Source: Eledone cirrhosa (taxonomy: Eukaryota). From it: DNA of 64,000 bases. Numbering within the stretch: position 1 is the first letter of the stretch; each line of letters opens with the position of its first letter. The notes under the pieces were generated by a model. That model ran no database searches, was not told the origin of the DNA, and saw nothing but the letters and a program-made list of their open reading frames with translations. The position numbers and the translations under genes were made by a program. Below are positions 27,146 through 58,782 of the stretch, in pieces. The stretch spans positions 24,428,001 to 24,492,000 of the forward strand of contig OZ024764.1 of the NCBI GenBank assembly GCA_964016885.1. The letters are read 5' to 3'.

Positions 27146-28536
27146 ATGAAAGGGCTGACCCTTACAGTAAAGCTGCTACTGATTAGTATCATGTGTCACA
27201 TGACCAATGGACTCCAAGTGAACTGGACAGCTAACCCGACTGGACGTCACTTTAATGGCACTGTAGCAGATAACGTAGCACAAACTCTTCCTATCCCTGG
27301 GACATTGGTCTCCGCTTCACATAGTGTTCTGCATAGATTTCCTTCACCACCACCACCACCACCACCACCATCACTAACATCACCACCACCACCACCACCA
27401 CCACCACCACCACCATCACCATCACCACCACTAACATCACCACCACCACCACCACCATCACCAACACCACCACCACCACCACACACTCCCCCCTCACAAT
27501 TGGTTGTCCTATTGTCCCCATTGTCCACCCCCCCTGCCGCCAAACACCACATTCTTCTTGTCAGCCCCAGAAACAACAACAATAACACCAACACCACCTC
27601 TACTACCATCCCCACCACCACCAACACCACCACTACCACCACCACCACCACCACCACCACCCCCACCACTGCCACCACCACCAACACCACCTCTACTACC
27701 ATCCCCACCACCACCACCACCACCACCACCAACACCACCTCTACTACCATCCCCACCGCCACCACCACCACCACCACCACCACCACTACCATCCCCACCA
27801 CCACCAACACCACCACCACTACCACCACCACCACCACCACCACCACCACCTCTACTACCATCCCCACCACCACCAACACCACCACCACTACCACCACCAC
27901 CACCACCACCACCACCACCACCACCACCGACACCACCTCTACTACCATCCCCACCACCACCAACACCACCACCACTACCACCACCACCACCACCACCACC
28001 ACCACCACCACTACCATCCCCACCACCACCAACACCACCACCACTACCACCACCACCACCACCACCGACACCACCTCTACTACCATCCCCACCACCACCA
28101 ACACCACCTCTACTACCACCACCACCACCACCAACACCACCACCAACACCACCACCACTACCACCACCACCACCACTACCACCAACACCACCACTACTAC
28201 CATCCCCACCACCACCATCCCCACCGCCACCATCCCCACCACCACCACCACCACCACTACTACCACCCCCACCTCTACCAGCACCACCACCACCCAGCAT
28301 CATAAAGCAGCGAGGTTAGATGGTGGCACCACACCAGCGCCACCTGGTGGTACAACTGCCAAAGATCCGTGGAATGCTCGCGCCATTATAGGCACTGGTC
28401 TCTTTATTATCTCCCTTTGTTTGCTGGCTTATCTGATTCGTCTTCTGAGACCTAGCTGTCGCCATAGAGACCAGCGTACCATCAGTCGGTCCCACAGACA
28501 ACCCAACCGTGACCCCTGCATTGAATGGCAGTGGAA
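27146..28536 (+). CDS. Type I membrane mucin-like protein, coding exon 1 (signal peptide, Pro and Thr tracts, TM helix)
   Basis: MKGLTLTVKLLLISIMCHMTNG; poly-Pro; ~240-aa Thr-rich tract with NTT sequons; TM AIIGTGLFIISLCLLAYLI; basic tail; donor AA|GTAAGT at 28537. Confidence 0.8.
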
Positions 28537-28557
28537 GTAAGTTGTTTATATACTTAT

Positions 28558-28910
28558 TTCTCTCTCCATATCTCTCTCTCTCTCTGTCTCTCTCTCTGAT
28601 TCTCTCTCTCTCTCTGTGTCTCTTACTTTCACTCGCTTTCTCTCTCTCTCTCTCTCCTTGTCTCTCTCACTCCCTCCCTGTCTGTCTGTCTCTCTCTCTC
28701 TCTCTGTCTCTCTCTCTCTCCCTGTCTCTCTCTTACTCATTCTCCCTGTCTCTCACTCCCTGTCTCTCTCTCTCTCTCTCTCTCTCTCTCCCTGTCTGTC
28801 TCTCTCTTTCTCTCTCTCTCTGTCTATCTCTCTCTCTGTGTCTCTCCCTGTATCTCTCTCTCTCTGTCTGCCTGTCTCTCTTTCTCTCCCTGTCCCCCTC
28901 TCTCTCTCTC
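28558..28910. repeat. (CT)n-rich microsatellite
   Basis: Direct reading. Confidence 0.9.
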
Positions 28911-28944
28911 TAACACAGAGAGACAAATAGAGAGACAGAGGGAC

Positions 28945-29102
28945 AACGTTTGTGACATAGAGCTATGGCCCTTTACATGCTCAGTTCAAATCACACCGAT
29001 GTTAACTTTGCTTTTCATCCTTACGGGGATCGAGAAAATAAAGTACCAGTAATACACTGGTGTCGATTGCTGGCCTTGTGCCTAAAGTAGAAACAATTAT
29101 TA
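28945..29102 (+). mobile_element. Meta-like SINE, 5'-degenerate
   Basis: Matches 24930-25070. Confidence 0.75.
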
Positions 29103-29129
29103 CTAGCAGTGGTTTTCTGCTGTCAGGTG

Positions 29130-29975
29130 TCGTGTGTATATTGACATTATACACAGGTATATATACATGTGTAGTGTGTATATTGATATTATACACAGGT
29201 ATATATACATATCTAGTGTGTATATTGATATTATACACAGGTTATTATACATGTGTAGTGTGTATATTGATATTATACATAGGTATATATACATGTGTAG
29301 TGTGTATATTGATATTATACACAGGTTATTATACATGTGTAGTGTGTATATTGATATTATACACAGGTATATATACATGTGTAGTGTGTATATTGATATT
29401 ATACCAGGTTATTATACATGTGTAGTGTGTATATTGATATTATACACAGGTATATATACATGTAGATATGTTACATGTGTAGTGTGTATATTGATATTAT
29501 ACATAGGTATATATACATGTGTAGTGTGTATATTGATATTATACACAGGTTATTATACATGTGTAGTGTGTATATTGATATTATACATAGGTATATATAC
29601 ATGTGTAGTGTGTATATTGATATTATACACAGGTTATTATACATGTGTAGTGTGTATATTGATATTATACACAGGTATATATACATGTGTAGTGTGTATA
29701 TTGATATTATACCAGGTTATTATACATGTGTAGTGTGTATATTGATATTATACACAGGTATATATACATGTAGATATGTTACATGTGTAGTGTGTATATT
29801 GATATTATACACAAGTATATATAGATGTGTAGTGTGTATATTGATATTATACACAAGTATATATAGATGTGTAGTGTGTATATTGATATTATACACAGGT
29901 ATATATACATGTAGATGTGATACATGTGTAGTGTGTATATTGATATTATACACAAGTATATATACATGTAGATAT
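29130..29975. repeat. 41/42-bp minisatellite with internal hairpin and ~308-bp higher-order duplication
   Basis: Unit acatgtgtagtgtgtatattgatattatacacaggtatatat; variant ataccagg at 29401 and 29709. Confidence 0.9.
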
Positions 29976-55903: not shown

Positions 55904-56278
55904 TATATTATTTTTAAAAAATTGAATATGTATAGACCAACTCAGCTTGCATGTATGTATGTTGTTCTAGAAATTCAGCTGCTATTTTTAGCAGGTCTAG
56001 CTATAATATATCATCATCCTGTGGCCTCAGCCAAAATGGACTCAACAATTGATCTCCACGTGGGTCTGTCGTTCATTGCCGTTGCCAAGTCCTGGATTTC
56101 AATACCAGAATCTCTGTAGATGACATCGGGGTAGGAGAGCTTGTGTCCCCTGTTATTAGTGACTGCTTGTGGTTTCTAGAGCACTAATGGGGACACAGCC
56201 TCAGAGCTGGTACGATGGCAGTGGCCAGCAAATCTTACTCTCCTTATACGTACGACAGATATGCATGGGAGGCCGGCT

Positions 56279-56916
56279 GACATGTCTGTATGTTGTTCTA
56301 GAGATCCAGCTGCTATTTCTAGCAGGTCTAGCTACCATCTATAGAACAACTGACATGTCTGTTGTTCTAGAGATCCAGCTGCTATTTCTAGCAGGTCTAG
56401 CTACCATCTATAGACCAACTGACATGTCTGTTGTTCTAGAGATCCAGTTGCTATTTCTAGCAGGTCTAGCTACCATCTATAGAACAACTGACATGTCTGT
56501 TGTTCTAGAGATCCAGCTGCTATTTCTAGCAGGTCTAGCTACCATCTATAGACCAACTGACATGTCTGTTGTTCTAGAGATCCAACTGCTATTTCTAGCA
56601 GGTCTAGCTACCATCTATAGAACAACTGACATGTCTGTTGTTCTAGAGATCCAGCTGCTATTTCTAGCAGGTCTAGCTACCATCTATAGACCAACTGACA
56701 TGTCTGTTGTTCTAGAGATCCAGCTGCTATTTCTAGCAGGTCTAGCTACCATCTATAGAACAACTGACATGTCTGTTGTTCTAGAGATCCAGTTGTTATT
56801 TCTAGCAAGTCTAGCTACCATCTATAGAACAACTGACATGTCTGTTGTTCTAGAGATCCAGTTGTTATTTCTAGCAGGTCTAGCTACCATCTATAGAACA
56901 ACTGACATGTCTGTTC
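56279..56916. repeat. 69-bp minisatellite (~9 units)
   Basis: gacatgtctgttgttctagagatccagctgctatttctagcaggtctagctaccatctatag; single related copies at ~55940-56005 and ~53500. Confidence 0.92.
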
Positions 56917-57114
56917 TGGTTGAACAAGTAAGGAATGTTTAGTTCTGTTTCTATTTGTGGGGATTAATACCTTGGAGCTTTCATGAGGCCCCAGCCTGTT
57001 ATTAGTGTGGCTGGGTGGGGTGTATGTGTGTATGTATATATGTATATATATGTGTGTGTATGTATATATGTTTATGTATGTATGTATATATGTATGTATG
57101 TATGTATGTATGTA

Positions 57115-57985
57115 TGTTTTCTCTTTCTCTTAATTTCGAGTATATTTTTTTGACCGGCCACCTTCCTGGTGGCAAGGTTGTAAAAGAAAAGAAATTGTCA
57201 TCCCTTGAATCGCAAGAATGTTTTGCAAATTTTGAAGGTGCCAGCTTTCGCAGCCACTTGTAGACTATGAATTAGGGAGCTGCGCTCTTTGTCCGCAAAT
57301 CCAAGTTCAGTCATACTTTGGTCCAAATGGGTTGGTATATAACCCGTAGCTCCAATAATGATGGGTATGAAACTAAAGGTGTATCTTGGATACTGGATTT
57401 GTAAACTCCTCATCAATGGTCCGTAGATGTCCTCTTTCTCTTGTATTTTTCTGACAACGTTTACATCAAGTGGGCAGCTGATCTCCACAACAGAACACGT
57501 TTTCAATGTGTGGTCCCAAACAACAATATCAGGCCGGTTGTGCTTTAATTTGGTAGCAGTTTTTATTTTCAGGTTCCACCAGTATTCCTTAGTGCCATCT
57601 GTCTCAATATATTCTTCCTCGTTAGTTGTTAATTTTGTTTTCCGAAGTGCGTTCCAGATGGTTCTAGCTATCCCATCGTGTCTCATGGGGAGGTAGTAGC
57701 GAGATGACATTCTTTCGCAGCTGGCAACAATGTGGCTTACATCCTCGATCTTTGTTTTACATAGCCTACATTTATTGTCAGCTGATGGCCCTCCTCTTTT
57801 GTGCAGCAGATATTTGGTAGGGAGTTCTTGTTCCTGTATTGCATAGAGATATCCCTCAAGGTGTGATGTCATAAACTTGTCGGAACTCCATGCCAGGCTC
57901 TTTGAGTGGTTTATCCCATCTATGGTCTGTGTTTTACGTCTCAAGTATCCATGCACAACTTTTTCTGTAAATTGGTCAATTTTTT
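57115..57985 (-). mobile_element. 5'-truncated RLE-type non-LTR retrotransposon (R4/NeSL/CRE-like)
   Basis: CRLC..EDVSHIVASC knuckle, RHD, RPDIVVWD..VEISCP..K..Y PD-(D/E)xK-type nuclease. Confidence 0.88.
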
Positions 57986-58720
57986 CAATGTATGTATGTA
58001 TGTTTGTTTGTATATATGTATGTATGTATGTATGTTTGTTTGTATGTTTGTTTGTTTGTAAATATGTATGTATGAATGTATGTTTGTATGTATGTATATA
58101 TATTTCTAGGCATGTATGTGTGTATGTATGTATGTGTGTATGTATGTTCTTCTGGTTTTATAATTTCACAAAGTTTTACCAATAGAGAGAGAGTCGGTTT
58201 CTAACATAGACACAAGACTCTCAGTGGAATTTACACAACATCAACTAGGTAGATATGTATGTCTGCATGTGTAGATATGGATGTTATTGTATGTGTGGAT
58301 GTGGATGTTTTGAGTTGTATGTGTGCATGTGTATATGCTTTGTATCTGTACATGTGTATATGCAGTTATTAGATACAACATTTTTGGAATGTTTTACATA
58401 TTTTTACTGTTCCATTAATGGATTGTACTTGTAATTTCCTAACTAGTGTTCTTTCTGTATGTATGTATGCATGTGTATATATGTAAATGTATGTGTATAT
58501 ATTAATATGTATATACATGTGTGCATGTGTATGTATATGTGTGGGGACATAGAAATAATTGGGCTGGATACCCAATCCGCAGTTAAACCACTGGGAGTGA
58601 AGGACCCCTAGCCTTTGTCAGGGCATTCTTCTAGAAGGCAACTCAGGAAACTGGGATAACTCTGACATAAAACCTGCGGCTCAGTAGTTACCGATGATGT
58701 TAATCTTTTCTTCTTTTCAG

Positions 58721-58782
58721 GTTATAGCTACTGTCTCTCAGAGAGTGGGATTGGCTCAGTGCACAGTCTTTCCTCACTTTAA
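58721..58782 (+). CDS. Candidate terminal exon of the mucin-like gene
   Basis: Strong cttttcttcttttcAG acceptor. Phase 2 gives ML*; phase 1 gives YSYCLSESGIGSVHSLSSL* but needs an intermediate exon I could not find. Confidence 0.4.

What the first reader, a model, noticed from the sequence alone, without database searches (positions are those of the whole stretch)
27146..58782. Hidden spliced orphan membrane mucin-like receptor with ITIM-like and PTAP motifs
Seen: the 478-aa ORF ends on a GTAAGT donor. Joining 30416-30586, 41657-41728 and 49058-49132 (canonical AG/GT, all phase 2) stays open across more than 20 kb of satellite-filled introns. The product has a signal peptide, Pro stalk, Thr-rich ectodomain, TM helix and a >130-aa tail containing LQYPKV (fits ITIM consensus [ILVS]xYxx[ILV]), YLNI and PTAPP. 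Known: P(T/S)AP binds the TSG101 UEV domain; ITIMs recruit SH2 phosphatases. Inference: a lineage-specific sialomucin-like signalling or adhesion protein; I recognise no homolog.
Basis: partly seen in the sequence, partly recalled or inferred. Interest (0 to 1): 0.75.

Follow-up and report, generated by a model that had tools for sequence, protein, structure and literature searches.

The report
Orphan octopus membrane mucin-like gene
Four single-copy DNA pieces hidden among repeats join in frame into what is likely an octopus gene for a cell-surface protein predicted to be sugar-coated; its start codon sits inside a common repeat and its outer part is a simple CAC repeat, but no RNA or relative confirms it and its "immune" motifs may be chance.

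Summary
The anatomy is confirmed. The ORF 27146-28536 and exons 30416-30586, 41657-41728 and 49058-49132 have AG/GT ends, are all phase 2 and join open into 569 codons: signal-like start, Pro/Thr tract, one membrane helix, 138-aa tail. The unique pieces are single-copy and beat chance. None of 30 control CAC arrays matches the target's signal and TM scores, and three such exons are expected about 5 times in 10,000. Corrections: the end at 58782 lies in a dispersed repeat with thousands of candidate copies, so the 3' end is unknown. The start codons lie in the end of a high-copy repeat. The Thr/Pro tract looks like non-coding microsatellite. The ITIM match arises in 16% of shuffles, and PTAP is one half of an 18-nt duplication. 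No homolog was found, but a disordered region of the neighbouring gene is only 35% identical to Octopus bimaculoides. No RNA run was available. Verdict: probably a real, lineage-restricted membrane mucin-like gene; the inhibitory-receptor reading is unsupported. The scan had not noted it before.

The parts
26625..27154 (+). Candidate leader: strong acceptor at 26625, then a tandem array of a 110-116-bp dispersed repeat with 13 ATGs before 27104; the array's last unit ends at 27154 and contains ATG 27104, 27140 and 27146
   Evidence: role as 5' UTR is inferred
27146..27211 (+). Signal-peptide-like start (residues 1-22); first three codons are repeat-derived, the hydrophobic core is unique sequence
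   Evidence: KD9 2.42 (47); helix 3-20 (74); 65 of 11,907 unique 63-codon control windows are open with such a core; SignalP not available
27212..27343 (+). Short unique N-terminal ectodomain piece (44 aa, two N-x-T sequons, no Cys)
27344..27499 (+). Pro tract: CAC microsatellite read in the CCA frame
   Evidence: 34 of 48 codons CCA, none CCT/CCC/CCG
27500..27574 (+). Unique linker; also holds a pyrimidine tract and a possible internal phase-2 acceptor (first exon base 27565)
   Evidence: acceptor score 3.2 (48)
27575..28297 (+). Thr-rich tract (241 aa): CAC microsatellite in the ACC frame with six identical 21-nt units; 13 of the 15 ectodomain sequons come from its AAC variants
28382..28438 (+). 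Single transmembrane helix (residues 413-431), 5 K/R in the 15 residues after it versus 2 before
   Evidence: 2 of 8,830 unique 80-codon control windows are open with KD19 of 2.4 or more; single copy (5, 68)
28439..28536 (+). Juxtamembrane tail up to the phase-2 GTAAGT donor
30416..30586 (+). Exon 2 (171 nt, phase 2-2): ITIM-consensus/YxxPhi hexamer 30417-30434, PTAPP 30480-30494
   Evidence: acceptor rank 3 of 1,707, weak donor rank 248 of 2,813 (11); single copy (9); depth 5-7 amid repeats of depth up to 10^6 (8)
41657..41728 (+). Exon 3 (72 nt, phase 2-2); YLNI forms across the exon 2/3 junction
49058..49132 (+). Exon 4 (75 nt, phase 2-2); unspliced, the frame stops at TGA 49134-49136 (570 aa)
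58721..58782 (+). Implied last exon of the finding: lies in a high-copy dispersed repeat; not accepted as a unique exon

Best explanation
This is likely an intact, single-copy octopod gene whose four in-frame pieces encode a predicted type I membrane glycoprotein of about 570 aa, likely working as a cell-surface mucin-type spacer rather than as a ligand-binding immune receptor. Shown: the exon chain, phases, single-copy status, composition (284 of 390 ectodomain residues are P, T or S; no Cys; no Pfam domain) and the TM helix. Inferred steps: (1) the N-terminus enters the ER as a signal peptide; (2) the ~200 Thr carry O-linked sugars and stiffen the chain into a bottlebrush that hydrates the surface and sets cell-cell spacing (general mucin knowledge, recalled); (3) the helix anchors it with the basic side inside; (4) the disordered tail with four Tyr controls turnover, most simply through its two YxxPhi sorting motifs, with PTAP possibly handing it to ESCRT-I; SH2 docking is possible but not indicated. 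The start codon comes from the end of a dispersed repeat and the stalk from a recently expanded CAC microsatellite.
For: Open phase-2 join of four pieces. Exons 2-4 and the unique parts of exon 1 are single-copy and sit in small unique islands. Symmetric phase-2 unique candidates elsewhere: 12 in 1.73 Mb strand-bases, about 0.15 expected per 20.6 kb, Poisson P(3 or more) about 5e-4 by hand. The same scan recovered three exons of the neighbouring WD40 gene. 0 of 30 control CAC arrays reach the target's signal and TM scores. An open 80-codon window with a TM-level segment occurs in 2 of 8,830 unique windows, an open 63-codon window with a signal-like core in 65 of 11,907. No signal-bearing upstream exon with a phase-2 donor was seen between 1,900 and 27,500. 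Atlas look-alikes are MUC21/MUC22 at 0.88/0.87, a lead only.
Against: No homolog in 1.84 billion representatives (TM region) or in two word searches (43 candidates; 8 candidates), although the collection holds O. bimaculoides proteins. The ATGs lie in a repeat end and 13 other ATGs precede them after the 26625 acceptor. The tract shows no codon-level selection: 9 of 33 variant triplets are synonymous (27%) versus 26% in pooled control arrays. The exon 2 donor is weak. Splice scores came from my own rough matrices, with thresholds set to admit the weakest of the three exons. No poly(A) hexamer at 49100-53000 and no credible last exon. 20 of 2,109 overlapping control windows also held three or more same-phase candidates, from two tight clusters.
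Confidence: 0.52

Rival explanations
1. The TM exon and tail exons are a real gene, but its 5' end differs. Either the exon starts at the internal phase-2 acceptor 27565, so that the 'signal peptide' and Pro tract are intron, or the repeat array landed on the old start and the gene is poorly translated or decaying.
For: Acceptor score 3.2 with a pyrimidine tract that explains the odd L/S/P linker. CAC arrays sit in introns right beside real exons here (the WD40 exon at window-equivalent 159088). ATGs are repeat-derived and there are 13 upstream ATGs.
Against: No phase-2 donor above -3.4 between the ATG and 27565, and no fitting upstream signal exon. The 63 unique codons after the repeat are open and signal-like, which 0.5% of control windows are. 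No stop or frameshift in any piece.
Confidence: 0.22
2. One reading: an inhibitory signalling receptor whose LQYPKV is phosphorylated and recruits SHP/SHIP, and whose PTAP recruits TSG101.
For: The motifs are present. ITIM signalling through SHIP is reported in oyster CgNCAM1 (PMC11841013, passages). Both motifs together occur in 0.16% of shuffles.
Against: There is a single ITIM-consensus hit, found in 16% of shuffles. The joint figure was picked after the fact from 13 motifs. PTAP is lost in the second copy of its 18-nt duplication. There is no folded ligand-binding domain, unlike the Ig-bearing oyster and Hydractinia receptors. No conservation data.
Confidence: 0.14
3. Not a gene: a microsatellite ORF with lucky flanks and chance exon-like islands.
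For: 22 of 30 control arrays are stop-free end to end. The tract's variant spectrum is like non-coding arrays. No homolog. The ATG is supplied by a repeat.
Against: It needs the signal-like flank (0.5%), the TM flank (0.02%), a donor and a three-exon chain (about 5e-4) all at once. The null homolog searches are weak, because the neighbouring gene's disordered N-terminus is 18 of 51 identical to O. bimaculoides against 75-78% in its core.
Confidence: 0.1
4. Exons 2-4 are the 5' exons of the downstream WD40 gene, whose exon at window-equivalent 140041 also starts in phase 2.
For: Same strand and matching phase; one O. bimaculoides record of that gene is marked partial.
Against: The WD40 gene has its own ATG exon at window-equivalent 107458 that ends in phase 2 and aligns to the O. 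bimaculoides N-terminus.
Confidence: 0.02

Closest known systems
Orphan membrane mucins and sialomucins without folded domains (MUC21/MUC22 as Atlas look-alikes; CD43/PSGL-1/endomucin type recalled)
   Same: Signal-like start, P/T/S-rich ectodomain (73%), one TM helix, Tyr-bearing tail; Atlas feature scores 0.88/0.87 (21)
   Different: No sequence homology and no Epiglycanin or other Pfam hit; scores under 0.9 with low recognition (1549); the stalk is a trinucleotide microsatellite; sialylation untested
Lineage-specific mucins made by 'mucinization' (Pajic et al. 2022, PMC9417175; passages read)
   Same: Orphan mucin-like gene with young exonic repeats (six identical 21-nt units) and a Pro-rich part
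   Different: Those are mammalian and predicted secreted, with no TM; in the cases I read they arose by repeat gain in existing proteins. Here the tract matches non-coding microsatellite and the ATG is repeat-derived; the precursor is unknown.
Invertebrate ITIM receptors: oyster CgNCAM1 (PMC11841013) and Hydractinia Alr proteins (bioRxiv 10.1101/2022.03.04.482883); passages read
   Same: Single-pass protein with an [ILVS]xYxx[ILV] match in the tail
   Different: They carry Ig/FN3 domains, and CgNCAM1 has two ITIMs and reported SHIP binding; here one match at chance level and no folded ectodomain

Membership tests
Membrane mucin-like / sialomucin-type protein (functional class) | P/T/S-rich ectodomain | tested here: met
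   284 of 390 residues; but 22 of 30 non-coding-like arrays would also give such ORFs
Membrane mucin-like / sialomucin-type protein (functional class) | Type I topology: signal peptide plus one TM helix | tested here: inconclusive
   TM met; signal judged by hydropathy only and its ATG is repeat-derived (55-58)
Membrane mucin-like / sialomucin-type protein (functional class) | Expression at the cell surface with dense O-glycans (sialylated in sialomucins) | not testable with these tools
   no RNA or protein data
SEA/EGF/AMOP membrane mucins (MUC1/4/13/16 class; features recalled) | Folded membrane-proximal domain | tested here: not met
   no Pfam hit; no Cys in the ectodomain; no confident fold
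CD164/endolyn family (features recalled) | Cys-rich domain between mucin tracts and a very short tail | tested here: not met
   0 Cys in the ectodomain, 138-aa tail; no Pfam hit
ITIM receptor | [ILVS]xYxx[ILV] in the cytoplasmic tail (definition as) | tested here: met
   one copy, residues 465-470; present in 16% of 20,000 shuffles
ITIM receptor | Tyr phosphorylation and SHP/SHIP recruitment; conservation of the motif | not testable with these tools
   no orthologs found
P(S/T)AP ESCRT-I ligand | Cytosolic P(S/T)AP motif | tested here: met
   residues 486-489; 0.9% of shuffles, one of 13 motifs tested
P(S/T)AP ESCRT-I ligand | Binding to the TSG101 UEV domain | not tested
   no complex prediction run; a textbook peptide would pass by likeness

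The most novel reading that the evidence does not exclude
A working cell-surface receptor whose whole outside was recently built from non-coding repeats: start codon and first residues taken from the end of a dispersed repeat, Pro and Thr stalk from an ordinary CAC microsatellite read in two frames, attached to an older spliced TM-plus-tail module. It would be a case of a mucin domain born from repeated non-coding DNA, a route that Pajic et al. 2022 considered but did not favour in the cases I read.
Probability: 0.25. Interest if true: 0.65.

Novelty: new member of a known kind. Interest (0 to 1): 0.35.

Why it matters
If expressed, it is a lineage-restricted octopod surface protein that homology and repeat-masked annotation would miss: most of exon 1 is microsatellite, and 318 nt of tail exons are spread over 20 kb. 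Its repeat-derived start and stalk make it a testable example of how repeat-rich cephalopod genomes may build new membrane mucins. The architecture itself is common, and nothing here shows a new signalling mechanism.

Tried and rejected
Homologs: none for residues 385-464 among 255-812-aa proteins, none for exon 2 among 99-2,000-aa proteins, none for the 80-aa TM region in 1.84 billion representatives, no Pfam family for 6 of 6 pieces; no paralog in the own genome. Exons 3 and 4 and the N-terminal piece were not searched against the large protein sets, and the Atlas gave no answer for the TM region. RNA: no RNA holder listed. Runs X1-X3 are one sample and behave as DNA, since a 381-nt contig runs through both splice sites of exon 2 (8). 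They do not cover 27167-27343, which proves nothing at 5-7x depth. Last exon: 58721 is in a repeat; no unique phase 2-to-1 exon; a candidate at window-equivalent 76618 has a 99% inverted copy at 46558-46728 and was not accepted. WD40 fusion rejected. The first alignment was in the wrong frame and was redone. Single-sequence AlphaFold: mean pLDDT 41.6, so no fold search was run. N-glycan sequons are not counted as support, since AAC is the commonest variant in control arrays. The TTAA-to-CTGA change after the repeat end (27 of 30 matches have TTAA, not independent copies) keeps Leu, but two bases are anecdotal. Dropped before counting: 3 arrays cut by a locus edge; 4 of 13 pattern loci were left out as overlapping the same arrays. 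Paper searches (listings only, except) showed no description of this gene; supplements were not read and annotation tables there could list it.
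Full report
Setting. The window lies on contig C25 of a 3.0-Gb genome. It is octopod: a C2H2 array opens the window, and the next downstream gene found, a WD40 gene, is 78% identical to Octopus bimaculoides. Most of the window is satellite, microsatellite and LINE-like DNA.

Observation. The ORF runs 27101-28540 (478 aa from ATG 27104, 464 from 27146) and overlaps a GTAAGT donor at 28537. The three exons have AG/GT ends, lengths of 171, 72 and 75 nt and phase 2 on both sides, and the join is open for 569 codons across 20,278 nt of intron. 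The product has a hydrophobic start, a Pro tract, a Thr tract, one TM helix at 413-431 with 5 K/R behind it against 2 before, and a 138-aa tail with four Tyr. The finding's end, 58782, does not hold. The acceptor at 58721 is the best-scoring of 1,707 in the scanned stretch, but it lies in a repeat with 4,913 candidate copies. It gives a stop after two codons in phase 2, and no unique exon bridges to the frame that ends at 58782. Unspliced, exon 4 stops at 49136. The 3' end is open.

Is it more than chance? The long ORF alone is not: 22 of 30 control CAC arrays are stop-free end to end, and flanking Thr-rich ORFs reach 779 and 1,200 aa. The flanks are. None of the 30 controls reaches both the signal score (2.42) and the TM score (2.46); two have both flanks of 74 codons or more, one low-complexity and one partly masked. 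In unique control DNA, 2 of 8,830 80-codon windows are open with such a TM segment and 65 of 11,907 63-codon windows are open with such a signal core; the windows overlap. Symmetric phase-2 exon candidates in unique DNA number 12 in 1.73 Mb strand-bases, about 0.15 per 20.6 kb, so three are expected about 5 times in 10,000 (Poisson by hand). Against this, 20 of 2,109 overlapping control windows also held three or more same-phase candidates, from two tight clusters. The matrices were my own rough values, and the thresholds were set to admit the weakest exon. The scan did recover three WD40 exons. All unique pieces are single-copy. I put the chance that the TM and tail exons form a real gene near 0.85-0.9.

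All three in-frame ATGs lie in the last unit of a 110-116-bp repeat found at many loci and ending at 27154. Elsewhere the unit is followed by TTAA (27 of 30 matches, not independent) and gives only short peptides. The TTAA/GGG end recalls piggyBac-type elements (recalled, untested). A strong acceptor at 26625 would place this array, with 13 further ATGs, in the leader. The stalk is a CAC microsatellite read as Pro and then as Thr. Its variant triplets are 27% synonymous against 26% in control arrays, and six 21-nt units are identical, so it is young and shows no codon-level selection; most sequons are a by-product. An internal phase-2 acceptor at 27565 offers another 5' end, but no matching donor or upstream signal exon was found.

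Relatives and expression. No homolog was found. This is weak evidence of absence, since the neighbouring WD40 gene's disordered first exon is 18 of 51 identical to O. bimaculoides while its second exon is 21 of 28. That first exon also rules out a fusion of exons 2-4 with the WD40 gene. Only DNA runs hold the locus, so splicing is untested.

Mechanism. Most likely a type I glycoprotein: ER entry, O-glycosylation of about 200 Thr into an extended brush, one anchor and a disordered tail. All of these steps are inferred from sequence and general mucin knowledge. With no Cys and no folded domain, spacing, hydration or anti-adhesion is more likely than specific ligand binding. For the tail, both quoted Tyr motifs fit YxxPhi sorting signals as well as anything else. 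In 20,000 shuffles the ITIM pattern appears in 16%, two YxxPhi in 18%, YxN in 19% and PTAP in 0.9%, with 13 motifs tested. PTAP is lost in the second copy of an 18-nt duplication. So sorting and turnover is my preferred but unproven role, and ITIM signalling is a rival.

Comparison. It would work like an orphan membrane mucin; the Atlas look-alikes MUC21/MUC22 are leads below 0.9. It fails the domain tests for SEA/EGF mucins and CD164 (features recalled). Molluscan and cnidarian ITIM receptors carry Ig domains (PMC11841013 and bioRxiv 10.1101/2022.03.04.482883, passages). Pajic et al. (PMC9417175, passages) describe orphan mucins arising by repeat gain in existing secreted proteins, and list origin from repeated non-coding DNA as an alternative they considered. 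Six paper searches showed no description of this gene; supplements were not read. Earlier scan notes hold nothing on this locus but list other mucin genes in this genome (unchecked).

Verdict. Observation partly confirmed, interpretation partly supported. Probably a real, lineage-restricted gene of a known architecture; interest 0.35. The boldest surviving reading, an ectodomain and start codon recruited from non-coding repeats, has probability about 0.25 and can be tested with RNA and one or two related genomes.

Noticed in passing
window 54695-60178 and L017 (window-equivalent 65309-70792): Exact 5.5-kb duplicate 10.6 kb downstream, with near-identical sequence continuing beyond it: recent tandem duplication or assembly artefact.
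   Followed up: partly
L021:5458-5615, L024, L026 (window-equivalent 107458-159277): WD40 gene related to O. bimaculoides XP_014780735 ('dynein assembly factor with WDR repeat domains 1', partial). Its first exon was found here; a CAC array precedes the exon at 159088, and UniRef A0A0L8GIA9 begins with a poly-Pro piece at the matching place, probably mis-annotated intron.
   Followed up: partly
window 39046-41267, 53962-55770, 59079-59677: Three arrays of one 72-bp satellite; two begin at TTAACCC (39037, 53953), and they give stop-free frames of up to 791 aa.
   Followed up: no
window 11166 and 26625: A strong donor in mostly unique DNA (score 7.9) and a strong acceptor (5.7) could form a non-coding first exon and 5' UTR intron of the gene.
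   Followed up: partly
window 1-1853 (+): C2H2 zinc-finger ORF with about 17 fingers, open from the window start; another C2H2 ORF lies about 74 kb upstream.
   Followed up: no
window 59756-61612 (+) and onward: 618-aa ORF with a weak zinc-knuckle hit (E 0.0075); copies at window-equivalent 113205 and 134028, the latter followed by endonuclease- and RT-like frames: a retrotransposon.
   Followed up: no
window 46558-46728 (-) and L018:2510-2680: 171-nt inverted copy at 99% identity about 30 kb apart, with no other full-length match scored.
   Followed up: partly
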